Origin: Gemmatimonadales bacterium
Lineage (GTDB): Bacteria > Gemmatimonadota > Gemmatimonadetes > Gemmatimonadales > GWC2-71-9
Reading direction: 5' to 3'
DNA: 64,000 nt
Assembly (NCBI GenBank): GCA_037189525.1
Contig: JBBCJC010000002.1
Coordinates: 992,001 to 1,056,000, forward strand
The notes beneath the pieces were generated by a model. The model saw nothing but the letters and a program-made list of their open reading frames with translations, was not told the DNA's origin and made no database searches. The translations under genes were made by a program, and so were the position numbers. Below are positions 26,312-40,766 of the stretch, piece by piece; the stretch's first letter is position 1, and the number at the start of each line of letters is the position of its first letter.

Positions 26312-26402
26312 CGCTCGGTGTCCTTGGCTGCTCGGATCGAGTTGGCTCAGGGCGCGCGGCAGCCTTCGTCCCAGAGCTGCCCGTAGTGCTGCGCCGCGGT
26401 AC

Positions 26403-26858: not shown

Positions 26859-26965
26859 GTTGGACGGCTCAGGTTGGACTCAGTCCCAAAATACCGTCGA
26901 CGTTGTTAGCCCGCGAGGCGGGGCCGCGGCGTTGGATGGGAGCTTGCCCGACTGGCCGCTGTAAC
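26859..26965 (-). repeat. Strongly eroded attC (long family)
   Basis: gttggacggc...cttgcccgactggccgctgtaac resembles the 30867 and 32281 sites; inverse core lost. Confidence 0.4.
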
Positions 26966-26975
26966 GGTAACCCAG

Positions 26976-27752
26976 CTATCGCCAGAGGTCGCCGATCGAG
27001 CGAACTCCGGGAACCAAGGCCTGCAGGGCATAGCCGCCGATCGCGAGGCTAACGAGAATGGCAGCGAATGGTTTCCAGGACCGGCGCACTACACCGGCCA
27101 ACCAATGCTGAGGCGATAGCTGTCGCAGGTGACGGTAGGCCCACGCCGCTATGATACCGTCCAGTAGTACTTCTGCAAGAAGCGAAGGTGCTCCGAGCAC
27201 AATGGCGAAGGAGCCGAAGAGGCCGGCGAACACGAAGCCAAGGAGGACGATGGGAACGACGATGACTGCCAAGGACTCATCCAAGTCGACGACATCTATG
27301 AGGTCGATCGAGTCGGAGTCCGCCGGTTCCATGGGAGACACCGGGGACGGAGCATTGATCGAGCTGCCGGCTCCACTCCCTGAGAACTCACCACCGCCAC
27401 CGAACGTGAATGACGGCTCAGCTGGCGCGGAATCGGGAGCGAGACCGGAAGGGTCGATGTGATCCAGCCAACGTGAGCGCTCCCGCTGGGCCTGTCCCAG
27501 CCGCCGCGTCAACCAGATCTTGATGCCAAGCAGGAATGCGAGATAGCCTGCGCAGGCCGCCAGGGTGTACCGTAACGCCATCGAGCCTACGCCGAGGCTC
27601 AGCAGTCCAGCGGACAGGAGGAACCCTGCAGTGCCGGCGCCCAATACGACGCCGAGCATCGCTATTCGCGGGCTTCCATCACCCTCCAGGCGTTTAGCAA
27701 GCGCGGCGATTGCTCTTTGCCGCCTTTTACGGCGTATACCTTTACCCGGCAT
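26976..27752 (-). CDS. Hypothetical membrane protein (cassette)
   Basis: TM helices flanking FGGGGEFSGSGAG; APSLLAEVLLD, HWLAGVVRRSW. Confidence 0.75.
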   Translation of the reverse strand: MPGKGIRRKRRQRAIAALAKRLEGDGSPRIAMLGVVLGAGTAGFLLSAGLLSLGVGSMALRYTLAACAGYLAFLLGIKIWLTRRLGQAQRERSRWLDHIDPSGLAPDSAPAEPSFTFGGGGEFSGSGAGSSINAPSPVSPMEPADSDSIDLIDVVDLDESLAVIVVPIVLLGFVFAGLFGSFAIVLGAPSLLAEVLLDGIIAAWAYRHLRQLSPQHWLAGVVRRSWKPFAAILVSLAIGGYALQALVPGVRSIGDLWR

Positions 27753-27774
27753 AGAAGAATCGATGCATTGGATT

Positions 27775-27846
27775 GCCTAACGGTTATCGCTGACTGCAAA
27801 CAGGCATCGCAGTGATGCGTATGTCAGGCTGCATTGTTGGTTAGGC
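27775..27846 (-). repeat. attC site, intact, 72 bp
   Basis: Minus strand GCCTAAC-caaca-ATGCAGCCTGAC...GCAGTCAGC-gataacc-GTTAGGC; perfect RYYYAAC/GTTRRRY; about 20 bp after the stop. Confidence 0.85.
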
Positions 27847-27865
27847 GGGGTCTGCACGATGCCGG

Positions 27866-28579
27866 CTACTCCCAAAGAAAATAGTAGACTACCCGAAAAC
27901 GCCGTGACAGGATCACGTTGTGCTCGCCCGGCTGCGTAAGGAGATACTCCCCCAGTCGAAAGACGGTGCTGGTGGTATCGACGAGTCGACCCAGTCGTTC
28001 GAAGGTCGCGCCGACTCGGCGGCAGATGTTCCGGTCCTGCACGAGCCGAATCGCCTGCCCGAGGGAATCCACGTTCGACGTCAATCCGAGATGCTGTCGC
28101 ATCTGAGGTGCAGCGAGGGCGTCTACCCACCAGGCGTGCTGGGAAGCGATCTCCGTACTGTCGCGTGTGCAGGTCCAGGCGGCCCGGTGGGCTCGCGCGA
28201 CGCTCATCCGGACCGAGTCGGCTGGGCATTCACCGAGACAGAAGGCCTGAGCCGTGAGGAGGACGACGAGACTGTCTCCGCCAGGCTGCGTCACGGATAC
28301 GGTGCTATCGTACGTACGATAGCCAAGGGCCCGCACGGTAATGCTGTAGCGTCCGACGGCTAGCCCCGACATGTGGAACAGTCCGGCCGAGTCGGATCGC
28401 AGTCCGATTGCACTGTCCCCGGCGGAGCGGCGGACGATGATACGCGCATTCGCGATCGGCCGCTGCCCGGTCACGTCCCGCACATGCCCGACGATCCTCG
28501 CTGCCGGCTCTTGGGCGACAAGGCTCGTGCCCAAGAGGGTGATTATGCCGAGTAAGCTGACAAGCCGTTTCATGGGCAC
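27866..28579 (-). CDS. Secreted carboxypeptidase-regulatory-like domain protein (cassette)
   Basis: Signal peptide; GHVRD..RPIANA, SDSAGLF, GRYSITVRALGY. Confidence 0.7.
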   Translation of the reverse strand: MPMKRLVSLLGIITLLGTSLVAQEPAARIVGHVRDVTGQRPIANARIIVRRSAGDSAIGLRSDSAGLFHMSGLAVGRYSITVRALGYRTYDSTVSVTQPGGDSLVVLLTAQAFCLGECPADSVRMSVARAHRAAWTCTRDSTEIASQHAWWVDALAAPQMRQHLGLTSNVDSLGQAIRLVQDRNICRRVGATFERLGRLVDTTSTVFRLGEYLLTQPGEHNVILSRRFRVVYYFLWE

Positions 28580-28580
28580 T

Positions 28581-28600
28581 ACCTAACGACTCTGCTAAGT
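28581..28600 (-). repeat. attC remnant (core site GTTAGGT only)
   Basis: GTTAGGT directly before the cassette start; no matching inverse core. Confidence 0.45.
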
Positions 28601-28632
28601 ACCGGGAGAATGGCGCCTTCGTGCGATCGTGG

Positions 28633-29118
28633 CTAGTCCACGAGTCCGGGACGGTTTGGCATTGCGATCATCGTGCCAGTCATGGTGGCGATGAGCGTGC
28701 CGGTCATGTCCGGCGTTGCCCCGGGTTTTACTTCGCCGTCCGTGTCGGCCACGCGGAACTCACCCGAGACGACGGTCAAGGTCCGGCCCGCGCGAACGAC
28801 CCGCCCGATCGCATAGAAGCGACTCCCTCGTGCCGGCGCGAGCAAGTTGACCTTGAACTCTACGCTCAACACTGCCGCGCCGGACTCCATCAGACTGAGC
28901 GCTGCATAGCCGCAGGCGCTGTCCATCACGGTCGTCACTATGCCGGCATGGAGAAAGCCATGCTGTTGCGTCAGTTCCGACCGGAACGGGAGTGCGAGGA
29001 TGACCTCGCCTGGCTCGACTCGCGCTAGCGTGGCGCCGAGGGTCGCCATCACGGCCTGTCGCTCAAAGCTCGAACGGACACGCTGCTCGAAGTCCGGGTC
29101 TCGCGGTGTCTGGGACAT
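28633..29118 (-). CDS. PaaI family thioesterase
   Basis: QQHGFLHAGIVTTVMDSACGYAA, SVEFKVNLLAPA. Confidence 0.9.
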   Translation of the reverse strand: MSQTPRDPDFEQRVRSSFERQAVMATLGATLARVEPGEVILALPFRSELTQQHGFLHAGIVTTVMDSACGYAALSLMESGAAVLSVEFKVNLLAPARGSRFYAIGRVVRAGRTLTVVSGEFRVADTDGEVKPGATPDMTGTLIATMTGTMIAMPNRPGLVD

Positions 29119-29203
29119 CAGAGCAACTTAGCGTTGCTTGCCGAGCGGCTCAACGCCCAGCGCTTCATCGACCTTCTCCTGGGTCCTCGTTTCGTTTGAG
29201 GTT

Positions 29204-29344
29204 GCCTAACGATTGAGGTGGTCAGCAGTAGGCGCCCCTCGGAGCCGAGCGGTTCGCGCTGTCCTCCGACTAACGTGGTGGAACGGTCGCGACTCCGGAA
29301 GAGGACGCTTGCCCGGCCGGATGTCTGCAAACCCATGTTTAGGT
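29204..29344 (-). repeat. attC site, long family, inverse core mutated
   Basis: Plus strand gcctaac...gcgactccggaag...ctgcaaaccc..gtttaggt; homologous to 32281-32417. Confidence 0.7.
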
Positions 29345-29743
29345 GATGTGATCCTGGAACCACTTTCGGGAACGGGCAGACATGATGAGGTCGATACATT
29401 CGAAATGCAGCCCCCAGCGCCAATGATAGCCCGCCAATGATGGGGAGACGACCGTATTTCAACCTCTCCGGCCCCAACGTGGCTAGCGCCAGCCAAGCGA
29501 GCGCCAGATGTGTCTTCCGAAGACGCTCATTATCTCGCCGAATTGCTGATAACCGTGGATGCCTCGTATTCCACCGTCGAACAGAACGAGCAGCCATTGA
29601 GGGAGCCACGCGATGCCCAGGGCCTGAGCATTCTTCGCAAGCCGATTGCGCGCTGTCGCCAGGCTGTTCGGTAAGACGTCCTCGGCAAATCGAATGTCGT
29701 CCAACAACCGTGCTCGTCGCCGGAGTAGGCGCCATCGTGACAT
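29345..29743 (-). pseudogene. Possible degraded cassette ORF
   Basis: About 400 bp between two attC sites; ATG 9 bp after the core site; no frame gives a recognisable protein. Confidence 0.3.
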
Positions 29744-29752
29744 CCAGAGGCC

Positions 29753-29801
29753 CTCTAACGTTTGCTTTTGCAATTAGCAGAGTGTGTGACCGTTGTTAGA
29801 T
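29753..29801 (-). repeat. attC, internally deleted (49 bp)
   Basis: Minus strand ATCTAAC...GTTAGAG, a few bp after the stop at 29808. Confidence 0.55.
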
Positions 29802-29807
29802 CGTCGA

Positions 29808-30575
29808 TCAGAAAGACACGGGATAACCGGTCAGTTGGCCCAATAGCCTGCCGTCTGCGAGCGGCAACACCACGAAGAAATCATAGAAGTCCGGAGGAAA
29901 GCGTCTGGATTGATCTGGATTCCTTTCAGTCAAATTTACCCTGAAAGTGACGAACGCTGCCTTGCCCCTAACGGGAGCTGGTATGGTCTTCGACGATAGG
30001 AGGGGCCCTATGCCGTCTGGGGCCTTGGCTCGAATCTCGAACGTGAGAGCGGGAGGGCCGAGGGTTTCGGTCTGGAGTCCGATGACATAACTGACAGTGA
30101 TGTCGATCGAGTCTACACCCTTGAACCCATTGCGGCGAAGGAGCGTGTCGCCCGTGGCGGCGTTCTGGAAGGTGGCGATGAAGGGTTGCGCGCTGGTATC
30201 GGGATCCACGACCAGGATCTCGGATTGGGCTACAAAGTTCGGATAGTCGGTTGCTCCCCCTCCGCGGGCGAGGATCCCTCCGCGGCCGGCGGCCAAAGGC
30301 GTCACCAGTCCGCTGCTGTCCACGCGAAGGGGCCCGAACCACACGCTCCAATTCGTGCCTAGCTGTCGTCCGTCGGCAGTCACCGGGCGTGCGCTCAGAC
30401 GGACCGTATCATTGATGGTCAGGATCAGGTTCTCGAGATTGATCCGGAACTCAGTGACGCAATCTCCGGTGCACGGGATCACCGGACCGACGGGCGCGTC
30501 GTCTCCGCAGCCGGTCAGGACTCCGGCCGACAAGAGTATGCCAAGAACATTCCAACGAATGGTGCTCTTTCTCAT
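29808..30575 (-). CDS. Hypothetical lipoprotein with Ig-like domain (cassette)
   Basis: LTGC lipobox; DTVRLSA, VDSSGLVT Big-like motif. Confidence 0.65.
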   Translation of the reverse strand: MRKSTIRWNVLGILLSAGVLTGCGDDAPVGPVIPCTGDCVTEFRINLENLILTINDTVRLSARPVTADGRQLGTNWSVWFGPLRVDSSGLVTPLAAGRGGILARGGGATDYPNFVAQSEILVVDPDTSAQPFIATFQNAATGDTLLRRNGFKGVDSIDITVSYVIGLQTETLGPPALTFEIRAKAPDGIGPLLSSKTIPAPVRGKAAFVTFRVNLTERNPDQSRRFPPDFYDFFVVLPLADGRLLGQLTGYPVSF

Positions 30576-30590
30576 GGGTCCACTTCTCAA

Positions 30591-30650
30591 AAACTCGCGG
30601 TTTCGGAAGAAGAGTCTTGACCGGCTGCCCGCTGCAACTTCTTGTTGGAC
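30591..30650 (-). repeat. attC half site (inverse-core arm)
   Basis: ccggctgcccgctgcaa identical to the 32281 site, ending gttggac; core arm deleted. Confidence 0.6.
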
Positions 30651-30866
30651 AGCATCACGGCGATCGTCGCCTACAGGCGGTGTGCGAGTCGCAGACCGAG
30701 TGGGGAACCTCGAGAGGCTCTGCTTTGGGCAGACACTGGTACCCCCGTGAGGATGAGGGCAAGAAGCACCGGGGGTACATCGCATGATGGAAGGTAGTGC
30801 GGCTGCGCTTGTCTAGCGGTGATCTGAAGCACATTTCCGCTAAGGGCAAATCCGGGTGACTTGCCT

Positions 30867-30984
30867 GTTGAACGGCATTTGGATTTCGGCGGCAACCGCC
30901 ACGGAGCCAAGCGGCTGCTCCATCCTCAGGTCAACATGGGGAACGGAACTCTGCCCGGCTGTCCACTGCAACACTCTGTTAAAC
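30867..30984 (-). repeat. attC site, long family, internal deletion
   Basis: Minus strand GTTTAAC...GTTCAAC; shares ccatcctc..aacatgggg and gcccggctg-cc-ctgcaa with the 32281 site. Confidence 0.65.
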
Positions 30985-31062
30985 CTCTGCATGAAACGGG
31001 CACCGGCAGCAGTACATGAGACACATAATTTGATACTCTTACGTTGTCCGCAGTCATCCCGT

Positions 31063-31611
31063 TCATGGGTCGTTGTCTGGGACTGCCCTAAACGTCAAAG
31101 ACACGCGGCGAGACCGCAGGTATTCCCGACCGTTCCACACGTCTGACGTACGACTGGGAATCCCATGCTTCCAACGCCAGCGAGCCTCTCCAGACAGCAC
31201 CAGCAGACTTCTAGGTTCGAGAAACAGCTCGTAGGAAGCCTCCGGGCCCGAACGCGTGAATCGCATCATGCAGGTCGACCCCAAGCTGATCGATGTAACT
31301 ACTTCTCCGAAAACGGACTGATCCAAGTGATCAAAGATCCCAGTGCCCGGTTGGTATTCATTGGCGACAAGCTGATTGGGAGTGCTCTCGAGATGGCCGT
31401 CTTGATAGAGCTGTCGCGCTAAGGCAGTTGCCCAAACGGGGAGATCGCCGATTCGGTATGCTACTTGGCGCTTATGGTCGTAGTGATAGCCGTACACCTG
31501 AACGCCATGATCCACGGATGTCTGCCACCGTTGTTGGTCAACAGCGGAGAAGAGTTGATCGTGAGTTCCCTGATCCAGGTAGCCCGGAACATACGTAATG
31601 CCCGCAATCAC
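31063..31611 (-). CDS. AlkB-like 2OG-Fe(II) dioxygenase (cassette)
   Basis: NEYQPGTGIFDHLD (HxD), WKHGI, RVSLTFR; GTG with GGAG RBS. Confidence 0.85.
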   Translation of the reverse strand: MIAGITYVPGYLDQGTHDQLFSAVDQQRWQTSVDHGVQVYGYHYDHKRQVAYRIGDLPVWATALARQLYQDGHLESTPNQLVANEYQPGTGIFDHLDQSVFGEVVTSISLGSTCMMRFTRSGPEASYELFLEPRSLLVLSGEARWRWKHGIPSRTSDVWNGREYLRSRRVSLTFRAVPDNDP

Positions 31612-31657
31612 GGAGTAGTCTCCAAAGGTTGCTTTCTCACGGCCAGTTTGTAGAGGT

Positions 31658-32206
31658 CTAATTCCGGGATGTCCAGGCTGGCGGCTTTTGCCCCATCTTG
31701 AGAATGTGCTTCCTGAAGACGATTGCCGAGCCACTGAGTGCGTCGGTCGTGACAAAGGCGATTGGCAGGCCTGGCTCAGCATCGAGGATGAGTTCCGCTG
31801 TAAACCCGTTCCTGCGAAAGAGATCTACGGCCTCACGGGCGGCTTGCTCCGGATCGGCCACCACAAAGCCCAACGCGGCGCTCGGCTGCCCGAGCCGATC
31901 GAGCATCGTCTGGCGCGGATGGTTGACTATGGTGCCGTTGCTGAAGATGGTGCGCTCGACGTCGTCGGAATCGACGCGGAACCTCGGCACGTGCCCATGC
32001 AACTGCATCAACTCTTCGAGCGCGATCAACGCAGGTGTAGACTTAGCCGAGAACACATGGTAGTCGCGGTCAGGGAACGGAAGAGGGTTCCGATCGCGCA
32101 CAAGACTGGTGGTCCACGCAGCCAGAAGCAGCACCGCCACGAGCGCCGGATAGAACACAATGCGAGGCACTTTTACGGAACTGTTGACGAATCGTGCAAC
32201 TGTCAT
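31658..32206 (-). CDS. Hypothetical membrane-anchored protein (cassette)
   Basis: 182 aa ORF with N-terminal TM, downstream of an attC core site. Confidence 0.65.
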   Translation of the reverse strand: MTVARFVNSSVKVPRIVFYPALVAVLLLAAWTTSLVRDRNPLPFPDRDYHVFSAKSTPALIALEELMQLHGHVPRFRVDSDDVERTIFSNGTIVNHPRQTMLDRLGQPSAALGFVVADPEQAAREAVDLFRRNGFTAELILDAEPGLPIAFVTTDALSGSAIVFRKHILKMGQKPPAWTSRN

Positions 32207-32280
32207 GGGTTTTTCCGATCACGCGGCGGTGATTGTTGTGAATTCCGGATGTTGCCACCATGCCGATCGCGGCACGAGGC

Positions 32281-32417
32281 GTCTAACGACTTTGAGTTTC
32301 AGCAGCAGCCGGTATGGAACTGAGCAGCCGCGCCATCCTCCCAACCAACATGGGGGCGCGGCCGCGACTCCGGAAGCGGAACCCCGCCCGGCTGCCCGCT
32401 GCAAACCCCTGTCAGGC
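32281..32417 (-). repeat. attC site, long family, 137 bp
   Basis: Minus strand GCCTGAC (contains the toxin TGA stop)-agggg-tttgcagcgggcagccgg...ccggctgctgctgaaac..GTTAGAC. Confidence 0.75.
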
Positions 32418-32714
32418 GTCTTCCGGAGCAACCGGCTCGTCGGGGAGTTGGGCACCGTGCCAGACCCCAACGACCCAAATCGTCCTCTGAACCACGCGAT
32501 AGAAGAACCGATAGGGCCGAACAATGACCTCCCGATACGGGAGGTCCGGAAACTCCGGGATCCGCCGCCCGGACTCAGGGAACCGCTCCAACCGTTTCAA
32601 CGTCTTCAGCGCACGGGCGTGAAACCGCCGCGCCACGGTGGGTCGATCGGCGAGAATGTACGCGACGACCGCAAGGAACTGCCGGTCGCCCGTCGGGGTG
32701 AACCGAACCTTCAC
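32412..32714 (-). CDS. RelE/ParE family toxin
   Basis: KVRFTPTG, LERFPESGRRIPE, YREVIVRPYRFFYRV, VWHGAQ. Confidence 0.9.
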   Translation of the reverse strand: MKVRFTPTGDRQFLAVVAYILADRPTVARRFHARALKTLKRLERFPESGRRIPEFPDLPYREVIVRPYRFFYRVVQRTIWVVGVWHGAQLPDEPVAPEDA

Positions 32715-32992
32715 ACGCCAGCGTCGCGCAACATCTGGTCCGCCTCGGCCAAGACCGCGTCCAAATCTCGGCCCTTCCCTGCAGCAATCTCCCGTTCCCC
32801 AGTCGCCAGGAGGTGGAGGAGCTGCCGCTCACGTTCCGCCTGTTCGTAGGCCTCCACGCTCAGCATGACGGCGGCCGCGCGCCCCCGCTGGGTAATGACC
32901 ACCGGCGCTCGGGACTTCTTGACTTGAGCCAAAGCACGGGCCGCATCTTGGCGAAAGTCGGTGATGGGGATGATAGGTGGGACTTTGGACAT
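32711..32992 (-). CDS. Phd/YefM family antitoxin
   Basis: IPITDFRQ, PVVITQRGRAAAVMLS; 4-nt overlap with the toxin. Confidence 0.9.
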   Translation of the reverse strand: MSKVPPIIPITDFRQDAARALAQVKKSRAPVVITQRGRAAAVMLSVEAYEQAERERQLLHLLATGEREIAAGKGRDLDAVLAEADQMLRDAGV

Positions 32993-33007
32993 TGGAACGA
33001 CCCTTTA

Positions 33008-33029
33008 GACGTACACTGCAAGGTACGTC
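33008..33029. promoter_or_regulatory. TA autoregulatory operator GACGTAC-N8-GTACGTC
   Basis: Perfect 7-bp inverted repeat 15 bp upstream of the antitoxin ATG. Confidence 0.6.
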
Positions 33030-33179
33030 AGGGCGTGCGTCAGCGCAAACCGGTCGATTGGAGGACCTTGCCGATCAGGAAGCGATGCCTACCCCGTCAT
33101 CCCGCCATTCGCCCCAAAACCGATAGCGGTGGTTCCAGGCAGTCGATTCTGTTCCCCCGTCTCCTAACTGGAACCCGTC

Positions 33180-33461
33180 GTGTCGATCTTCCGTCTCCTC
33201 GTAGTCCTCACCTCCACCGCCCTCGCCGCTGCTCCCGTAGCCAACCCAATCCATCTGGCGCCGGGAAGCGCGCTGCTCCGGCTCGATCGGATCACGCCGT
33301 CCGTCGACAGCACCTTCATCCGTTGGTCGATGAACGGCCAGGAGCGGGCGGGCCCGATTCAGATCGAGTCGGTCCGCCGAATCACCCGGGACGGCGGTGC
33401 GGTGCTCGAGGGGCAGGGCAGCAGGCGGCCCGTTAAACATACCTCGACCGAGCCCGCGTGA
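33180..33461 (+). pseudogene. Truncated secreted-protein gene, opposite orientation
   Basis: Signal peptide MSIFRLLVVLTSTALAA; ORF ends inside an attC remnant. Confidence 0.4.
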
Positions 33462-33483
33462 CTGCTGCAGGGCCTCGTTGGGC
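33451..33483 (-). repeat. attC half site (inverse-core arm)
   Basis: Minus strand GCCCAAC-gaggc-cCTGCAGCAG about 15 bp after the stop at 33499. Confidence 0.5.
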
Positions 33484-33498
33484 GGCCGCCGGATTTCG

Positions 33499-34215
33499 TT
33501 AGCGTATTACGCTGGTTGATCGTCCTGCCTCGTCGAGTATTTCGATCTCAGGCGTTCCCTCCGCAGTTACGCTCAAACGCAGACGAGGGCGTCCCTTAAC
33601 GTCCGAGAGTACTAGCACTGCGGTATTGTCTCGCCCCTTGCCGAGAAACAGTCGCTGAGTGGTCAACTGGTCGGCATCACGGAGAGCTTGGATCGCCTGA
33701 CGACGCGCTGAGGTGTCCGGCATCGCCTGAATCTCTCGGTACTTCTCCTGCAAGACGTCGCCCGGAATGTTTGGCTGCTGCCACATCTCCAGCCCGCTTG
33801 AGTAAGTTCCATTGTCACCCTCGAGATGCCTGAATCCGATTGTCTGGTCGCCGCGGACCTTATCGAACGTTAACGATCCGAAGTGGCCAATCTTGCCATT
33901 CTCGCCGTAGATGAGCCCGCCCATCTCATCACCGAGGTGGTTAAAGAAGATCAATCCGGGAGGACGTGGCCCTGCACGCGGAATGATCCTGCCATTGACA
34001 ATGCCGGGGTGCTGACGGGCCTGGTTAGAAATCACCATTCGCAACTGTCCATCGCTTTCCACGATGTTGATGCGTTGTACGTCTATTTCGGCGAAGCTGA
34101 CCCGCCCCTGAGGACTCTGAAAGGCGACCACGAGGGTCAGAAGTGCCAACGCCGTGACGACAACCGCATAGCGCTTGAGGAAGCGTACATCGCGACTCAG
34201 TGCGGATTCATCCAT
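33499..34215 (-). CDS. Hypothetical membrane-anchored protein (cassette)
   Basis: N-terminal TM; EIDVQRINIVESDGQLRMVISN, GLIFFN..GDEMGGL, LSDVKGRPRLRL. Confidence 0.75.
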   Translation of the reverse strand: MDESALSRDVRFLKRYAVVVTALALLTLVVAFQSPQGRVSFAEIDVQRINIVESDGQLRMVISNQARQHPGIVNGRIIPRAGPRPPGLIFFNHLGDEMGGLIYGENGKIGHFGSLTFDKVRGDQTIGFRHLEGDNGTYSSGLEMWQQPNIPGDVLQEKYREIQAMPDTSARRQAIQALRDADQLTTQRLFLGKGRDNTAVLVLSDVKGRPRLRLSVTAEGTPEIEILDEAGRSTSVIR

Positions 34216-34387
34216 TTGGTAGCCTCATATGCCATGGTATTCGACGAAACACTGGTCCTTCGATTTGGATACTTCGGTGGCGGCTCGCGTTGCATGGAGA
34301 TGGTTCTGGAGCAAATGTTTGCGAACGGCGGTCAATCGCATGGGGTGCGCCTAGCACCTGGGTCTGCCTGCATTCTCGGATTGGGCC

Positions 34388-34567
34388 GCCCAACTAGGGT
34401 ATGGACCTGCTGGCGCTGTGCACAAGTCCGGAATACGGTAAACGCTACCGCAGAATTCTGAGCCTGCGGTATTCATCGGCCGAGCAGCGACCGACAAAAC
34501 TGATACCCGATCGCAAGGAACCATCGGGCCGCTAACCCTACCGACAGTTGCAGAACATTGGTTAGGA
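34388..34567 (-). repeat. attC site, about 180 bp
   Basis: Minus strand TCCTAAC-caatgtt-CTGCAACTGTC...GCAGGTCC..GTTGGGC with internal hairpin accgcag/ctgcggt. Confidence 0.6.
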
Positions 34568-34622
34568 AGCTCTCCGCCTATGCTAAATGAAGGTGAGCTA
34601 GGCGTGTCCCCAGATGTCAGCG

Positions 34623-34952
34623 TCAATCGACGATAAAAAGTCGCGCCCCGCCCTCCGTCGAGGACCGATGCGGAGCCACGTCGTCCGACACATGGTACGA
34701 CATCCCCGCCGTCATCACATGCTTCCCGCCACCTTGAATTTCCGTGACGAGCACGCCGTCGAGCACATAGAGAATGTGACCCCGATGACACCAGTGATCC
34801 GCCAGGTACCCCGGTGAGTACGTCACCAGCCGTACCCGAACGTTCCCAGCCTGGATCGTCCGCCAGATCGCCTCGCCGGTTGTGCCCGGATGCCGGGTCT
34901 CCGGAACCGTGGACCAGTCCGTGATGCCGAAAGGGACGCCCTCGATCTTCAT
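34623..34952 (-). CDS. DHCW-motif cupin fold protein
   Basis: YSPGYLADHWCHRGHILYVLDG, PHRSSTEGGARLFIVD. Confidence 0.9.
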   Translation of the reverse strand: MKIEGVPFGITDWSTVPETRHPGTTGEAIWRTIQAGNVRVRLVTYSPGYLADHWCHRGHILYVLDGVLVTEIQGGGKHVMTAGMSYHVSDDVAPHRSSTEGGARLFIVD

Positions 34953-35012
34953 AACTTCACCTTACCTGTAGTCGACGCGATCGACCCAATATCTGACCGC
35001 CACCTGAGCAGG

Positions 35013-35561
35013 TCATTCGCACCGCTTCTGACGGAAATCGACCGGCTGGCACTCGAATGCCGACGTCGCCCACAGGCCGCGGTTGTTCTGCTGCGCATCG
35101 CGCGCGGCGCTTCGGAACTGGTCGGCATACCGGACGTTCGGCGGCAGGATGTAGACGACCGCAAAGCCCTGATGCAGCATCGACTCGTTGATCAGCTCGC
35201 CGTCCTCGTTCCACAGATAGGCCAGGATCCGCCCGAACTGATCGCGCTCGCGAACGTCGAGTTCCAGGCCGACCTCCGATTGGCGCGGCAAAAGCGCCCT
35301 GAGCGCCGCCGCCGACCGGTCACCGAATGGCCGTTGTCGTAACTCCGGCGCGTCGATGCCAAGCAAGCGAATCGACTGCTTGGCCCCTTCCACCTCGCAC
35401 TCGACCGAGTCGCCGTCGACGACCCGGAGCACTCTACAGGTCGGCCGCTCCACCGTCGATTGCGGCGGTGTCGCGGCCGGCGCCGAGGATGACCAGTACC
35501 AAAGCCCGACGGCCAGGGAGGTCAGCCCGGCGGCCAGACGGACCCAGGCCCGACGAGTCAT
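35013..35561 (-). CDS. Thermonuclease (SNase) family protein
   Basis: VVDGDSV, IRLLGIDAPE, RDQFGRILAY, RGLW. Confidence 0.9.
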   Translation of the reverse strand: MTRRAWVRLAAGLTSLAVGLWYWSSSAPAATPPQSTVERPTCRVLRVVDGDSVECEVEGAKQSIRLLGIDAPELRQRPFGDRSAAALRALLPRQSEVGLELDVRERDQFGRILAYLWNEDGELINESMLHQGFAVVYILPPNVRYADQFRSAARDAQQNNRGLWATSAFECQPVDFRQKRCE

Positions 35562-36301
35562 GGACTCGGCGGAATGTCGGTTGCGGACGCGTCCGGATCG
35601 CTCGTCTGCGCAGCAGGAGCGGGGCGGTCAGTGGCCCGCCGGCGCCGTTGTCGCCCTTCCTCATACCACCGCCGCGTAATTTCCCCGGCCAGTTCGCGGT
35701 TGCCCAGCCCGAATGCGAGTCCCGCCGCCAGCGCGATCGCGCCGAGCACCAGGGTAAACGCCGCTGTGACGATTTCGGCCGCCACGCCCATCTGCTGGGC
35801 AGCCATGAAGACGGCGATCAACACCACCGCCGTCTTGGCCAGCTTGGCCAGGGTCGGCACGCCTTCGACCGCGCCCGCCGACGCCAGCACGATGCCCCGA
35901 ACGAACTCGCCCACGATCATGCCCAGGATGACGATCACCACGGCCGCGATCAGGGTCGGGATGTACGAGAGCATGGTCCCGAACATCTCGTTGATGCTGT
36001 CGAGACCGAGCGCCGCGCTGGCCAGGAGGATGACCACCAGCATCACCAGCCAGAAGAGGAGCTTGCCGACCGCGTGAATCGGATCGACTCGCATACCCGC
36101 CCGATCCACCGCCTCCGACAACCCGCCCGCTTCGGCCACTTTGTTGAAGTTGAGGCGGCGGAGCAGGGCATCGGTGGTGTGCGCCACCAGTTTCGCCAGG
36201 AAGTAGCCGGCCAGCAGGATCAACAGCGCGCCGAAAAACGCGGGCACGATGGCGACCAGTTGCGCCAGGCCGATCTGCAGACGTTCGAACAACGGATTCA
36301 T
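35558..36301 (-). CDS. TM_helix/CmpX-like mechanosensitive channel-related membrane protein
   Basis: YIPTLIAAVVI, AAGLAFGLGNRELA. Confidence 0.8.
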   Translation of the reverse strand: MNPLFERLQIGLAQLVAIVPAFFGALLILLAGYFLAKLVAHTTDALLRRLNFNKVAEAGGLSEAVDRAGMRVDPIHAVGKLLFWLVMLVVILLASAALGLDSINEMFGTMLSYIPTLIAAVVIVILGMIVGEFVRGIVLASAGAVEGVPTLAKLAKTAVVLIAVFMAAQQMGVAAEIVTAAFTLVLGAIALAAGLAFGLGNRELAGEITRRWYEEGRQRRRRATDRPAPAAQTSDPDASATDIPPSP

Positions 36302-37341
36302 GGATTCACCTCGAGGACGACCTTGCCCAGCTGACTCCCGCTCGCCAGCCGCTCGTAGGCGCGGACGCCTTCCTCGAGCGGTACCACCAGATCCACCGGC
36401 GGCGTCAGCTTACCGCTGTTGGCCACCGCCATCATGGCCTGGAAATCGGCGCTGGTGCCCATGGTCGACCCGAGCAGGCTCCACTGGAACCAGAAGAGCT
36501 TGCGGATGTCGATCGAGACATGCGGCCCCGTGGTCGCCCCGCAGGTGACCAGCCGGCCTCCGGGGCGCAGCGACCGCAGCGACTTGTCCCAGGTTTGCTC
36601 ACCGACCGAGTCGACCACCACGTCGGCTCCGACCCCCGTCAGCGCGCGGACCTCCTTGGCCACGTCCGCGGTGACATGATTGAGGGCAACATCCGCGCCG
36701 AGCGCGGTGGCGGCCGCGAGCTTGTCCTCGGACGAACTGGTCACGATCACCCGCGCGCCGACATGCTTGGCAATCTGCAGTGCCGCCAGCGACACCCCAC
36801 CACCGATCCCCCAGATCAGGACGGTCTCGCCCGGCGCGAGCCGAGCCCGGGTAACGAGCATCCGCCATGCCGTGAGGGTGGCGAGCGGCAGCGCCGCTGC
36901 CTGGGCCCAACTCAAGTGCGCTCCCACCGTGGCCACGTTGCGCGCCGGCACGACCAGATATTCGGCCGCGGTGCCCGGGCTGTGCTCGCCGATCACGCCG
37001 AAGCGCCGGCAGTACGGCTCTTCGCCCGCGAGGCACATGGCACAAGTCCCGCAGGAGAGACCGGGATTGAGGACGACACGATCGCCCGGGGCCAGTCCGG
37101 TGACCTCGCTGCCCACCGACTCGATCACGCCGGCCGCATCGGTCCCGACGATGTGTGGAAAGCTGAGGGTGACACCCGGCAACCCGCCGACGACGAAGAT
37201 GTCGAGCCGGTTGAGCGCGGCTGCCTTGACGGCGATGCGGACCTGATCGGGCTGTTCCAGCGTCCGATCGGGGAGTTCGAGGGTTCGGAGCCGGTCGAAT
37301 CCGCCGTGTCCGGTCAGCGTAAGTGCGCGCATAGCTTGCAC
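36298..37341 (-). CDS. Zinc-binding alcohol dehydrogenase family protein
   Basis: CGTCAMCLAGEEPYC, GIGGGV, GRLVTCGATTG. Confidence 0.9.
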   Translation of the reverse strand: MQAMRALTLTGHGGFDRLRTLELPDRTLEQPDQVRIAVKAAALNRLDIFVVGGLPGVTLSFPHIVGTDAAGVIESVGSEVTGLAPGDRVVLNPGLSCGTCAMCLAGEEPYCRRFGVIGEHSPGTAAEYLVVPARNVATVGAHLSWAQAAALPLATLTAWRMLVTRARLAPGETVLIWGIGGGVSLAALQIAKHVGARVIVTSSSEDKLAAATALGADVALNHVTADVAKEVRALTGVGADVVVDSVGEQTWDKSLRSLRPGGRLVTCGATTGPHVSIDIRKLFWFQWSLLGSTMGTSADFQAMMAVANSGKLTPPVDLVVPLEEGVRAYERLASGSQLGKVVLEVNP

Positions 37342-37429
37342 AAGTGAGAGAGATGTGCAAGATATATGTCTGCAGTCGCGCAGGGCGAGTCATCAGACAG
37401 GCGAACAGTCTTTCGCGTTGGAGGACGAG

Positions 37430-37936
37430 ATGGTGTTCCGTGATGTGGAAATGGGTTGGACCGGGTCGGGGTGGATGGAGCCTATGCCGTCGTCATCCCC
37501 GCCAGCAGCGCCGGCTCCAGTTTCGGCACCGGCCCCAGCGGCCGTGCCGCCCGTTCCCGCCACACCGGTGGTGCTCGAAGTTCCCGAGCCCGCCGCGCCC
37601 AAGCCGCGTACTGCCAAACCCAAGGCGGCGCCCAAACGGGTCGCCAAGCGGAAACCGGCTGGCAAGAAAAAGCCGGCCGCACGTCCCAAGTCGGCCAAGA
37701 AGGCCGCCAAGTCAGTTGCCCGGCCCAAAAAGGCCGTCAAGAAAGGTGGAAAAAAGATGGCGAAGAAGACTGCGAAGAAGGCCGCGAAGAAGTCGACCAA
37801 GAAGGTCGCTCGCAAGCCGGCCAAGAAGGTTGCCAAGAAGGCCGTGAAGAGAGTCGCTGCGAAGAAGGCCACCAAAAAGGTCGCGAAGAAGGCGACCCGC
37901 AAAGTCGTCAAAAAGGCCGCCAAGAAGCGGAAGTGA
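37430..37936 (+). CDS. Histone H1-like Lys/Ala-rich protein
   Basis: GGAGG RBS; Pro/Ala linker then KKAAKK repeats; alternative internal start at 37757. Confidence 0.65.
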   Translation: MVFRDVEMGWTGSGWMEPMPSSSPPAAPAPVSAPAPAAVPPVPATPVVLEVPEPAAPKPRTAKPKAAPKRVAKRKPAGKKKPAARPKSAKKAAKSVARPKKAVKKGGKKMAKKTAKKAAKKSTKKVARKPAKKVAKKAVKRVAAKKATKKVAKKATRKVVKKAAKKRK

Positions 37937-38877
37937 ACGGTTCGGCGTCTGACGAGGGGGCGCTCCACGAGCGTGGGGCGCCCCCTTCGCCTTCCTCACC
38001 TCCGGATGCCAGCTCGGCACGGGAACGGCTGGGTCGATTCTTTGCCCGACGCCTGAATCGGCACGGCTGGGTGGCCCGACGGGAACTGGGCCAGCCATCT
38101 CCGGGAGATGATCAGCTCCGCCAACAGCTGGCCACTTCGGCCGGCTCGACCTTCCGGCAGGGTTCCGGTGCTTACAGTTGGGCCCTTCGTACCGGCCTGG
38201 TCGAAGACCTGGCGGCGCTCGCTCCCGGTTCGGAGCAGCTCCGCGAAGCCGTCGCCCCTCTACTGACTCTCAGCGGTCGCGCCGGCGCATTTGGGGAAGG
38301 GTGTACCTCCGCGAGACACGGCCACCGCGTCTGCGAGCATTTCATCGGCGGCTTCTTTGCCGTCGCCCCTCCGTCCGCTCGCGTTGCCCCGACCACGTTA
38401 CCCAACGGACGCGCCTACCGGGTCGAATCCCAGGCCCGCTTTGCGGCAAGTTGCTGGATCCTGCGCGCCGTGCTCCTAGCCGGAGCCCAGGACGACGCCG
38501 GTGTGCAGCGGCACCTGAGCAGCTTCGGTTATCTGTTGGAAGAGTGGGATCGCTGGGAGGATTTCCTCATCCCCGACCTGGCCTTTGCCGCGCTCGGCGC
38601 GCTCGCGATTGCTCCGGAGCGGTGGCGTGATACCCGCGAGTCGTTGCTGCGGGTGGTGAGCGGCCGTCAGCTGCGCGACGGGACCTGGCCCAAGGTCGAT
38701 TTCTTCACCGCGCTGGACGGTCTGGTGGCCGTCGATCACCCCACCGCTCGCGAGCTGCTGGAGCGGGCCCTGCCAAGTCTCTTGCAGCGGCAGCGGGAGG
38801 ACGGGTCGTTCGGCACCGTGGCACCCGATGAGCGCGGCCTGATCGGGCTTCGTGTATTGGCCCGCGTGATCGGCTGA
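37933..38877 (+). CDS. Hypothetical protein with prenyltransferase/QW-type repeats
   Basis: GTGA overlap with the upstream stop; RQLRDGTW and RQREDGSFG. Confidence 0.65.
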   Translation: MNGSASDEGALHERGAPPSPSSPPDASSARERLGRFFARRLNRHGWVARRELGQPSPGDDQLRQQLATSAGSTFRQGSGAYSWALRTGLVEDLAALAPGSEQLREAVAPLLTLSGRAGAFGEGCTSARHGHRVCEHFIGGFFAVAPPSARVAPTTLPNGRAYRVESQARFAASCWILRAVLLAGAQDDAGVQRHLSSFGYLLEEWDRWEDFLIPDLAFAALGALAIAPERWRDTRESLLRVVSGRQLRDGTWPKVDFFTALDGLVAVDHPTARELLERALPSLLQRQREDGSFGTVAPDERGLIGLRVLARVIG

Positions 38878-38929
38878 CGGATCGGTTCGGATGGTCCCGC
38901 GGTCCCCCGCGCCGCTCTATATTAGCGGG

Positions 38930-39151
38930 GTGTCCTTCCATTGGTCTCCCACCCGCATGGATCAGTTGGAGCGAGCCGCCCGCGAAGGGAAGCGGGTCGC
39001 CCTGATGCGTCGCGGAACGGAATACGTCGTGATCGCCCGCCGGCTCGAAATCGGCGCGCGCGGTGACCGCCTGATCGGCTTCCTTACCATGTCGGGTCAG
39101 GAGATGGCCTTCGAGCTCGACCAGGTCGAGTCCTTCGAGGTCGTCTCGTGA
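38930..39151 (+). CDS. Small hypothetical protein
   Basis: DQLERAAREGKRVALMRRGTEYVV; GTGA overlap with rnhA; start uncertain (38930 or 38957). Confidence 0.65.
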   Translation: MSFHWSPTRMDQLERAAREGKRVALMRRGTEYVVIARRLEIGARGDRLIGFLTMSGQEMAFELDQVESFEVVS

Positions 39152-39816
39152 CGGCGCCCGTGCCTCGGCCCCGCGTCGTGGTCGCCCACCTGGATGAAAG
39201 CTGTCTGGGCAACGGCCGAGAGGGGTCGAACCCGGGGGGCGCGGCGGGTCTGATCGAAACCCGCACCAGCCGGGGCGTGGAGCGGCGGGATTTCTACGTG
39301 TCGGCGCCGGCCACCACGAACAATCGCATGGCCCTGACCAGCGCCATCACCCTGCTCGAAATCCTGGCCGGCAAGGGCCACCGTTTGCGGGTGCTGGTGA
39401 TTTCCGACTCCGAGTATCTGGTGCGCGGAAGTCGCGAGTGGCTGCCCGGGTGGGTGGCTCGCGGCTGGAAACGCAAAGCGGGGCCGATCGAGAATCTCGA
39501 ACTCTGGCGCTCGCTCCACTCGGCGCTCACCTTGCACGATACCCAACTAGTCTGGGTCCGGGGGCACGCCGGCCATCTCAAGAACGAGTTCGTCAACGAT
39601 CTGGCCATCAAGGCGGCGCGAGAACAGGTCGCCACCAAAGGCGCGATCGAGTCGACGTTACCGGAATGGCTTGCTGCGCATCGTGCCAAGGGGCGCTACC
39701 TCGAATCCGATCCGGATGCGTCGTATGCGGTGCTCGAACAGCGGGTCGCCGCCGGAGAGCGGTTTGCCATGTCGCTGGACGAACGCGCGGTGAGCGCGGC
39801 GGGAGGGCGGGAATGA
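39148..39816 (+). CDS. rnhA: Ribonuclease HI with atypical active site
   Basis: DESCLGN..NPGG, TTNNRM, SDSEYL, WVRGHAGH.KNE. Confidence 0.85.
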   Translation: MTAPVPRPRVVVAHLDESCLGNGREGSNPGGAAGLIETRTSRGVERRDFYVSAPATTNNRMALTSAITLLEILAGKGHRLRVLVISDSEYLVRGSREWLPGWVARGWKRKAGPIENLELWRSLHSALTLHDTQLVWVRGHAGHLKNEFVNDLAIKAAREQVATKGAIESTLPEWLAAHRAKGRYLESDPDASYAVLEQRVAAGERFAMSLDERAVSAAGGRE

Positions 39817-40766
39817 CCGACCTGGAACGCTTCGTCAAACGATTGCTGGAGACCCTCAAGGCCCGTCATCCCGCCGGGGCGCAGCGTCCTTTCACGGTCG
39901 CCGAGTTGCGTGGCGCCGTCCTGCCGTACCGAATGCACCGCTCGGCGCTCGGACTCTCGAGTAGCGAAGACTACGAGCTGCTGGTTTTCCGTCTGATGGC
40001 CGAAGAGGGAGGCTTTGCGCGGACGACGCCACCCGATGCGGCTGACCGCGCCCGGGAAGAGCTGGCGTCGCCGGTGCCGGATCTGGATTTGGTAGAGCTT
40101 TGGGGCGATGCCACGCTCCAGTTGACCCACGACGTCGCCAACCGGCTGGCGGCGATCGAATCTGCCGAGCTGGCGGAAGTCCCGTCTCCCGCCGATCCGG
40201 TTGCGCCGGTAGCTGCGGTGGAGCCCTTGCTACGGGAAGCGGATTTCGTTGAGGCGATAGTCGACGGTGCGGAGCAAGTGCATTGCCTCGCGAATGACGA
40301 GGAGCCGGTCGCGGTAGACCTCGAGGAATTGGTAGTCTCGGATGCGGAGCAGGCGGATGGCGAAGACTCGAATGAGCCGGACACCGAGCCGCTGGAGGGC
40401 AAAGGCTCGAATGAACCGGACACCGAGCTGCTGATCGAGGAACTGCTTCCGACGGTTTCGGTGGCCGCGCCCGCCACGAGTTCGTCGTCGGACGTGCACG
40501 CGCGAGAAGAAATTTCGGCCGAGTTGTCGGCTCCGGCGCCGTTCGAGCCGCTGGCGGACAGTGTCTCGGTCGATGGCATCACGGCCACGTCGATCGGCGA
40601 ACGGGTCTGCCTGTCCTGCGAGGCGCCGCTCCCATCGGATCGGCTCCTGGCCTTCTGCCCTTTCTGCGGCGAACAGGTCGGGGTCCGACGTTGCCGGCGC
40701 TGTGGCAGCGAGATGGAGCCGGACTGGCGATATTGCGGGGCATGCGGAGAGGCCCATGTCCGATAA
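39813..40766 (+). CDS. Double zinc-ribbon domain protein
   Basis: C-terminal CLSC, CPFCG, CRRCG, CGACG; acidic linker. Confidence 0.8.
   Translation: MTDLERFVKRLLETLKARHPAGAQRPFTVAELRGAVLPYRMHRSALGLSSSEDYELLVFRLMAEEGGFARTTPPDAADRAREELASPVPDLDLVELWGDATLQLTHDVANRLAAIESAELAEVPSPADPVAPVAAVEPLLREADFVEAIVDGAEQVHCLANDEEPVAVDLEELVVSDAEQADGEDSNEPDTEPLEGKGSNEPDTELLIEELLPTVSVAAPATSSSSDVHAREEISAELSAPAPFEPLADSVSVDGITATSIGERVCLSCEAPLPSDRLLAFCPFCGEQVGVRRCRRCGSEMEPDWRYCGACGEAHVR
40367..40433 (+). repeat. In-frame tandem duplication, period 39 bp (SNEPDTE)
   Basis: ctcgaatgagccggacaccgagccgctg / ctcgaatgaaccggacaccgagctgctg. Confidence 0.8.

What the first reader, a model, noticed from the sequence alone, without database searches (positions are those of the whole stretch)
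26859..34955. Integrase-less integron cassette array (CALIN) in active decay
Seen: about 10 attC-like elements (27775, 28581, 29204, 29753, 30591, 30867, 32281, 33451, 34388, weak 26859), most a few to tens of bp behind the stop of a co-oriented minus-strand ORF. They have RYYYAAC...GTTRRRY ends and L-box-like CTGCA..CTGAC/GCAG arms. Cargo is heterogeneous (PaaI, AlkB, cupin, TA pair, secreted orphans) and looks lower in GC. No tyrosine recombinase lies at either end; core-like genes follow at 35 kb. Known: this is integron cassette architecture. Inference: an orphaned chromosomal array in a probable Gemmatimonadota genome, whose cassettes are becoming fixed as attC sites erode.
Basis: partly seen in the sequence, partly recalled or inferred. 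Interest (0 to 1): 0.82.

Follow-up and report, generated by a model that had tools for sequence, protein, structure and literature searches.

The report
Integrase-less cassette array keeping its dock
This is a real but eroding row of swappable gene cassettes that has no recombinase gene beside it yet still begins with a copy of the genome's own cassette docking sequence, one of several such spare docks that were likely loaded from a distance by the single integrase gene 1 Mb away, which is broken in this strain.

Summary
The array is real, but it is not a plain orphan. Four of the ten listed elements score as attC with a covariance model built from other loci, four are remnants and one (26859) is unsupported. 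The tenth (34388) is an attI: a 3-mismatch copy of the site beside the genome's only integron integrase, 1.02 Mb away. That integrase is frameshifted here but in frame in contigs of two sludge strains. The genome holds about 70 attC sites and two more integrase-less attI-like heads. One heads 14 or more intact attC sites, and its first cassette is a 99% copy of a main-array cassette. A sister species keeps the same attI at the orthologous locus, with different cassettes and intact attC sites. Orphan attI heads with arrays also occur in other relatives. Best reading: duplicated integron platforms lost intI, kept attI, and were loaded in trans; this one is now largely frozen. The cupin is flank, not cargo. 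CALINs are well known. attI-headed satellites did not turn up in seven paper searches, but this scan noted them before in other genomes (unchecked AI notes). No recombination assay exists.

The parts
34388..34465 (-). attI-like docking site heading the array; crossover G|TT at 34394; one substitution (34398) in the otherwise conserved spacer before the core
   Evidence: 3 mismatches in 23 nt to the intI-linked site C2:2291-2313; next genomic hits at 6 mismatches, controls at 5; 73-nt alignment beats 1000 of 1000 shuffles; same site at the orthologous locus of G021
34466..34622 (-). non-coding spacer between cupin and attI, no IntI remnant; holds an inverse-core box near 34561-34567 that is also present in G021
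34623..34952 (-). DHCW cupin gene: conserved flank, not a cassette
   Evidence: NF038084 above cut-off; G021:C39 aligns from 34622 onward at 84%
33499..34215 (-). first cassette ORF, 238 aa, no family hit; three 36%-identical paralogues on C1
   Evidence: its start core at attI is the exact complement (7/7) of its own R'' at 33477-33483
33395..33483 (-). broken attC of cassette 1 (R'' and L'' kept, R' lost)
   Evidence: sequence; no attC fold, z 1.09
33180..33461 (+). antisense 93-aa ORF with a signal-peptide-like start, overlapping the broken attC; likely an inverted gene fragment
   Evidence: no family
32412..32992 (-). Phd/YefM antitoxin + ParE/RelE toxin cassette; candidate start core 33162-33168
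   Evidence: Pfam PF02604 and PF05016; a 72% identical pair lies between two attC sites in G015
32281..32417 (-). attC of the genome's own ~140-nt family, best preserved, but R'' AAC changed to GAC
   Evidence: CM 93.8 bits, rank 58 of 69 in the genome; fold z -3.27
31658..32206 (-). 182-aa ORF with N-terminal hydrophobic segment, no family; no attC between it and the AlkB-like gene
31063..31782 (-). AlkB-like 2OG-Fe(II) oxygenase ORF (longest frame; the true start is probably downstream)
   Evidence: PF13532 E 1e-20
30867..30984 (-). decayed attC of the genome family with an internal deletion
   Evidence: CM 43.0 bits; fold z -0.14
30651..30866 (-). about 220-nt cassette without a credible ORF
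   Evidence: no second copy in the genome
30591..30650 (-). 5' half of an attC, fused to the start of the next gene
   Evidence: HMM positions 2-56, E 0.0014
29808..30575 (-). lipoprotein-like orphan ORF (255 aa from the ATG at 30575)
29753..29801 (-). 49-nt attC remnant (terminal boxes only)
   Evidence: no model hit; z -0.63
29345..29752 (-). cassette with a short orphan ORF; differs from two sludge strains by a 1-nt indel at 29639
29204..29344 (-). decayed attC of the genome family
   Evidence: CM 53.0 bits; fold z 0.90
28633..29118 (-). PaaI-like hotdog thioesterase cassette
   Evidence: PF03061, TIGR00369
28581..28638 (-). 58-nt short attC remnant; R' intact
   Evidence: no model hit; z 1.76
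27866..28579 (-). secreted carboxypeptidase-regulatory-like domain cassette
   Evidence: PF13620; start core matches own R'' 6/7
27775..27846 (-). 72-nt attC of a foreign short type, R boxes 7/7 complementary, single copy in the genome
   Evidence: CM 18.6 bits, E 0.018
26976..27752 (-). last recognisable cassette, 258-aa membrane protein; its own attC is no longer detectable
   Evidence: starts 23 nt after the core at 27775

Best explanation
The region is an integron cassette array of about eight cassettes, headed at 34388-34465 by a copy of the genome's attI sequence and lacking a local integrase, and it was likely loaded in trans by the genome's single IntI, 1.02 Mb away. Shown: the attC sites and remnants; the attI-like head; one IntI in the assembly, co-oriented with and upstream of its own attI and frameshifted in this strain; further integrase-less attI heads in this genome and in relatives; and different first cassettes at orthologous heads. 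Inferred: the platforms arose by duplication or repeated acquisition of a whole integron followed by intI deletion; IntI made elsewhere inserts cassettes at G|TT of these heads; and in this lineage the window's dock has fallen out of use, so its attC sites erode and its genes, including a toxin-antitoxin pair whose flanking sites are damaged, become fixed.
For: attI identity. Cassette 1 core and R'' are 7/7 complementary exactly at the attI crossover. There is only one IntI in the genome. G021 has the same attI next to the orthologous cupin, 18 of 19 nt identical against 135 of 248 columns in the spacer, with no intI and unrelated first cassettes; two of its three attC sites score 112-113 CM bits. 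The second orphan head C11:200 (orthologue G021:C64, different first cassette) leads into C7 or C12 (17 and 14 attC sites, all 100 HMM bits or more). Its first cassette differs at 4 positions in about 410 nt from main-array cassette 4, and the identity starts at the core. In G007 the stretch just upstream of the intI start survives 240 nt before an orphan attI (z 5.5, 0 of 200 shuffles). G006:C10 has IntI fragments before an attI-like site. Of 8 attI-model hits at E<0.01 outside the training set, 7 are followed by a co-oriented attC or array. G083 (99% complete, one IntI) has two orphan heads with arrays.
Against: No recombination or binding test was run. The window array itself shows no recent gain: a sludge strain with a different first cassette at the main attI has the same first cassette here. 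No window cassette has a DNA copy elsewhere in the genome. No intI or intI-promoter remnant was found at this locus, so its origin by deletion is borrowed from G007 and G006. Different content in G000 and G021 could come from differential loss. The attI model found no orphan in most genus members (hits in 4 of 22 genomes), and own-attI patterns gave only the intI-linked copy in G008 and G011. One of the 7 supporting hits (G007:C14) is a 95% duplicate of a training locus. The assembly is in 16 contigs and both long arrays are broken, so an unassembled second intI is not excluded.
Confidence: 0.7

Rival explanations
1. Dead relic: a second complete integron lost its intI long ago and has only lost cassettes since; the attI is a passive leftover (closest to the first reader's view).
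For: Eroded attC sites, a substitution in the attI spacer, a largely static array in conspecific strains, and several full-length intI per genome in relatives such as G001, G007, G011 and G012.
Against: The attI core is far better conserved than its spacer between G000 and G021. G021's orthologous array has intact attC sites. A sister orphan head carries a 99% copy of a main-array cassette.
Confidence: 0.17
2. The motif is kept as a cassette promoter (Pc) rather than as a recombination site, and the arrays were moved behind it by homologous recombination between the 86%-identical attC repeats or by other rearrangement.
For: A -10-like hexamer sits just before the core in all heads (alignment). 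Flanks of arrays are shuffled between G000 and G021.
Against: Junctions fall exactly at the G|TT core, as site-specific recombination predicts. The sigma-70 scan found no site. The two roles are not exclusive.
Confidence: 0.08
3. The array began by chance insertion at a secondary genomic site (attG, consensus GWT) and grew by attC x attC insertion; the likeness to attI is coincidental or convergent.
For: attG insertion is frequent and proposed as a source of small CALINs (10.1101/2022.09.11.507474, passages).
Against: That paper finds attG sites unlike attI in sequence. Here the head is collinear with the genome's attI over about 70 nt and is the only 3-mismatch copy in 4.65 Mb.
Confidence: 0.05

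Closest known systems
[quoted passage not shown]
   Same: Two or more attC sites with cassettes and no intI within 10 kb; IntI elsewhere in the genome, as for half of CALINs; degenerate attC sites as a step to gene fixation.
   Different: Those papers see CALINs mainly as cassette donors or degraded integrons. Their tool does not detect attI outside the clinical classes. Here the array has its own attI, and sister platforms show signs of receiving cassettes.
Sedentary chromosomal integron with species-specific attC repeat, inverted-integrase arrangement (PMC4889954, passage on the inverted group)
   Same: About 60 homogeneous 135-141-nt attC sites (training set 86% mean identity), a TA cassette, and intI co-oriented with the cassettes with attI at its 3' end.
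   Different: Split over at least four attI-like heads with one intI, rather than one platform.
Xanthomonas CALINs at conserved loci away from ilvD (10.1101/2025.06.18.660453, passages and section 10 read)
   Same: Conserved chromosomal position across species, intI elsewhere and often inactivated, arrays frozen after inactivation.
   Different: No attI at those CALINs is reported in the passages read.
Delta-attI-type cassettes of mobile integrons (PMC12901181, abstract read)
   Same: attI sequence away from intI that IntI still recombines.
   Different: Those are attI fragments ending a cassette inside an array; this is an array head next to a conserved chromosomal gene.

Membership tests
CALIN | at least two attC sites clustered on one strand | tested here: met
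   4 hits with a self-built CM; IntegronFinder's own model was not available
CALIN | no integron integrase or pseudogene nearby | tested here: met
   nearest IntI 1.02 Mb away
CALIN | ORFs co-oriented and ending just before attC, with start core complementary to own R'' | tested here: met
   7 cassettes scored 7, 5, 6, 5, 4, 5 and 6 of 7
complete integron | adjacent intI | tested here: not met
attI site | homology to the attI beside the cognate intI, with a GTT core at the first-cassette junction | tested here: met
attI site | accessory direct-repeat IntI binding sites upstream of the simple site | tested here: inconclusive
   a second motif about 65 nt upstream of the core recurs in most G000 and G021 heads, degenerate in the window
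attI site | IntI-dependent attC x attI recombination | not testable with these tools
   needs a bench assay
attI site | associated cassette promoter Pc | tested here: inconclusive
   no sigma-70 match
REP-like dispersed repeat | dispersed, independent of gene ends and strand | tested here: not met
   70 of 72 clustered, 51 of 64 behind co-oriented stops

The most novel reading that the evidence does not exclude
Gemmatimonadales run distributed integrons: one integrase serves several conserved, integrase-less attI docks around the chromosome and moves cassettes among them. Many CALINs would then be live receiving platforms missed because attI is not searched for, and this window shows one dock being retired while its orthologue in a sister species stays in use.
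Probability: 0.55. Interest if true: 0.72.

Novelty: new variant of a known kind. Interest (0 to 1): 0.52.

Why it matters
CALINs are about as numerous as complete integrons, and 95% have no recognisable intI pseudogene nearby, so their origin is open (PMC4889954, PMC9024848). If a share of them keeps a working attI, they are extra capture and expression sites under one integrase, not just debris. This genome and G021 give a directly testable set: four attI-like variants per genome, a natural intact IntI, and one locus in both a fresh and a decayed state. The cargo in the window is ordinary.

Tried and rejected
Rfam found nothing in the window. PADLOC found nothing for 10 of 10 cargo proteins tested. 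No RNA holder was listed. The loose pattern gave no more hits than its control and was dropped; its extra loci had no attC. The G036 hit is the end of an attC-like site, not a head. The Pedobacter and Clostridium loci (2 of 7) have no attC or IntI and were treated as chance. Of 11 attI-model hits at E 0.01-0.05, only 3 had IntI sequence or a co-oriented attC (G001:C59, G142, G073:C186); 8 were rejected. G001:C271 (E<0.01) lies 782 nt from a contig end with no attC seen. The G021:C29 heads were not counted. The C5:157154 head of G000 scores within background without a gap (14.0 against a control maximum of 19.5) and is missed by the model; it is supported only by a gapped alignment (1 of 1000 shuffles) and by its position before an array. 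No intI-promoter remnant was found for the 6 G000 and G021 orphan heads or L109; only G007:C16 had one. The left flank is not syntenic in G021, so G021's array tail could not be traced. The joint 27796-28571 in two sludge runs does not match a clean excision at the cores. The other tyrosine recombinases (C3, C2:1.29 Mb and 1.35 Mb, C8, C14) score far below the IntI cut-off or miss the model.
Full report
Setting. The window is G000:C2:992001-1056000 of a 4.65-Mb assembly, 98% complete, in 16 contigs. The host is a Gemmatimonadales bacterium, judged from the titles of 5 of 7 public records that carry the same attI pattern. The stretch 26900-34600 has GC 0.603 against 0.655 for the genome; 19 of 597 equal windows are as low.

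The attC sites. A heuristic scan found 38 attC-like sites in the genome. An HMM from 34 of them, none from the window, with 86% mean identity, gave 72 hits above 20 bits. 70 of the 72 have a same-strand neighbour within 4 kb. 51 of the 64 with an intact 5' end follow a co-oriented stop within 60 nt, against 19 of 60 on the other strand and 20% at random. They are therefore not dispersed REP-like repeats. A covariance model from 16 non-window sites of several genomes (96% of cells paired, 13 of 24 pairs with changes on both sides) gave four hits in the array. These are 32281-32417 (93.8 bits), 29204-29344 (53.0), 30867-30984 (43.0) and 27775-27846 (18.6, E 0.018, only just above the 15-bit background). 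The best ranks 58th of 69 genome hits and has GAC for AAC in R''. Of the ten window sites folded, only 32281 folds clearly better than shuffles (z -3.27); 27775 pairs its R boxes (z -1.58). A main-array control gives z -5.85. 30591, 33451, 28581 and 29753 are halves or box remnants, and 26859 has no support. Decay is real: median HMM score 62.6 bits against 122-140 in the large arrays.

The integrase. TIGR02249 hits C2:2394-3322 in two frames. A profile of 26 relatives' IntI run over six frames finds no other IntI and nothing near the window. The gene is co-oriented with its cassettes and its attI lies 3' of it, an arrangement also seen in several relatives. The frameshift is in the probable source run with 0 differences. 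Contigs of two sludge runs (X2, X6) carry 7 more letters there, which keeps the frame; the run X11 does not show the place. X2 also has a different first cassette at this main attI (loose end at the core).

The element at 34388 is an attI. The 23 nt ending in the core beside intI have one copy at 3 mismatches in the genome, at window 34388-34410. The next hits are at 6 mismatches, and reversed and complemented controls reach 5 at best. The two sites are collinear over 73 nt (0 of 1000 shuffles as good). The core at this site is the exact complement of the R'' box of the first cassette (7/7), as expected if that cassette was inserted here. The cupin lies upstream and belongs to the flank.

The orthologous locus. 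G021 (same genus) aligns to window 34622-40175 at 84%. Its contig ends in the same attI, which overlaps the start of a small contig by 55 nt. The core region is 18 of 19 nt identical, against 135 of 248 columns in the spacer. No IntI lies upstream. Its first cassette is unrelated to the window's and is 79% identical to three gene-less cassettes of G000's C7 array. A later one is 83% identical to a G000 main-array cassette. Its three attC sites score 47, 112 and 113 CM bits.

More heads. G000 has a third attI at C11:200 (33.2 bits in a matrix not trained on it, control maximum 19.5; model E 7e-9) and a weaker fourth at C5:157154. No IntI hit lies in the first 30 kb of C11 or in C5:140-175 kb. 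C11's first cassette is a second copy of main-array cassette 4. Identity begins at the core, there are 4 differences in about 410 nt, and the two copies continue into C7 and C12 with different attC sites and different next cassettes. Which head leads to which contig is unresolved, but either way an integrase-less head precedes 14 or more intact attC sites. G021 has the orthologue of this head with a different first cassette (C64), and further heads at C17 and C41. A sequence-only model from 11 heads hit 4 of 22 genus genomes and 12 of 121 family genomes. Of 8 hits at E<0.01 outside the training set, 7 precede a co-oriented attC or array (one is a near-duplicate of a training locus). Of 11 weaker hits, 3 do or follow IntI sequence. 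G083, 99% complete with one IntI at a contig end, has two orphan heads with 4 and 5 attC sites. attI diverges between species, so misses are not absences; but G008 and G011 showed only their intI-linked copy.

Origin. Several relatives have two or three full-length intI. In G007 an orphan head retains the roughly 30 nt that precede the intI start codon, 240 nt before the core (z 5.5). G006:C10 has IntI fragments before an attI-like site. This points to whole platforms that lost intI. No such remnant is detectable at the window locus, so the origin there is inferred.

State of the window array. The probable source run spans it in two contigs with no differences. A sludge run about 1-1.5% different covers most of it in pieces, including one contig from 32494 to 36103 across attI and cassette 1. 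So while the main attI turned over, this one did not. Cassette 1 has lost R', the TA cassette's R'' is altered, and the attI has a substitution. By established integron mechanism these changes would lower excision and insertion; this is inferred, not measured. TA cassettes are reported to kill cells when excision is too high (PMC13108822, abstract), which may add to the freeze. One hint of variation remains open: the body of the 27866-28579 cassette has low or no cover in the three other runs, and two show a joint from 27796 to 28571 that does not fit a clean excision.

Comparison with print. By definition this is a CALIN. PMC4889954 (passages, section 20) lists integrase loss, rearrangement and secondary-site insertion as origins. 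It notes that CALIN cassettes may be excised in trans and re-inserted at the integron's attI, and that loss of the integrase from one of several integrons is hard to tell apart. PMC9024848 (passages) says attI is not detected outside class 1. PMC9668308 (passages) says CALIN cassettes can be excised or captured by IntI in trans. 10.1101/2025.06.18.660453 (passages, section 10) reports CALINs at conserved loci without mention of attI there. PMC3146285 (passages) describes attI only beside intI. 10.64898/2026.03.17.712381 (passages) uses an engineered attI with integrase supplied in trans, so the reaction is feasible. Seven searches returned no paper describing several natural attI-headed arrays under one integrase; the library lacks most subscription papers, and supplements were not read. 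Earlier notes of this scan report the same idea in other genomes. I reached the reading before seeing them and did not test them.

Verdict. The array is real and, as a CALIN, ordinary. The added finding is its attI head and the multi-dock layout of this clade: well supported as sequence anatomy, likely but untested as mechanism. New variant of a known kind; interest 0.52.

Noticed in passing
G000:C2:2394-3340 (L007): The genome's only integron integrase has a frameshift near C2:2912 in this strain, while contigs of two sludge strains keep the frame; one of them has another first cassette at the main attI.
   Followed up: yes
G000:C11:194-269 (L168), C7, C12: Second integrase-less attI heading a long array of intact attC sites; its first cassette is a 99% copy of main-array cassette 4.
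   Followed up: yes
G000:C5:157090-168200 (L169), C5:1125386-1125490, C2:627569-627662: A third, decaying satellite array with a weak attI-like head, and two isolated attC remnants.
   Followed up: partly
G000:C5:873068-873826 and C5:915621-915997: Genes that are attC-bounded cassettes in G021 (80% and 86% identical) but stand without a detected attC in G000: possible domesticated cassettes.
   Followed up: no
window 26327-26395: A 69-nt stretch between the glyoxalase-family and AHSA1-like genes is cleanly absent from two sludge strains; it has faint attC-like arms.
   Followed up: no
window 27797-28570: The cassette body has low or no cover in three other runs, and two show a joint across it with unknown sequence between: possibly a replaced or diverged cassette.
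   Followed up: partly
window 33170-33430: An inverted gene fragment replaces the 3' end of the first cassette's attC; possibly an off-target recombination scar.
   Followed up: no
G000:C8 and C14: Both contigs join end to start (141-nt overlap) and encode a tyrosine recombinase: likely circular or excisable mobile elements.
   Followed up: no
G021:C29 (L093) against G000:C2:361941-362066: A 7.9-kb insert with attC sites in G021 sits between flanks that lie 125 nt apart in G000.
   Followed up: partly
G105:C1:2206-2287 (L161): attI-like head followed by an attC in a 99%-complete genome where no IntI was found.
   Followed up: partly
window 37355-37936: Lys/Ala-rich histone-like protein ORF in the conserved right flank.
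   Followed up: no
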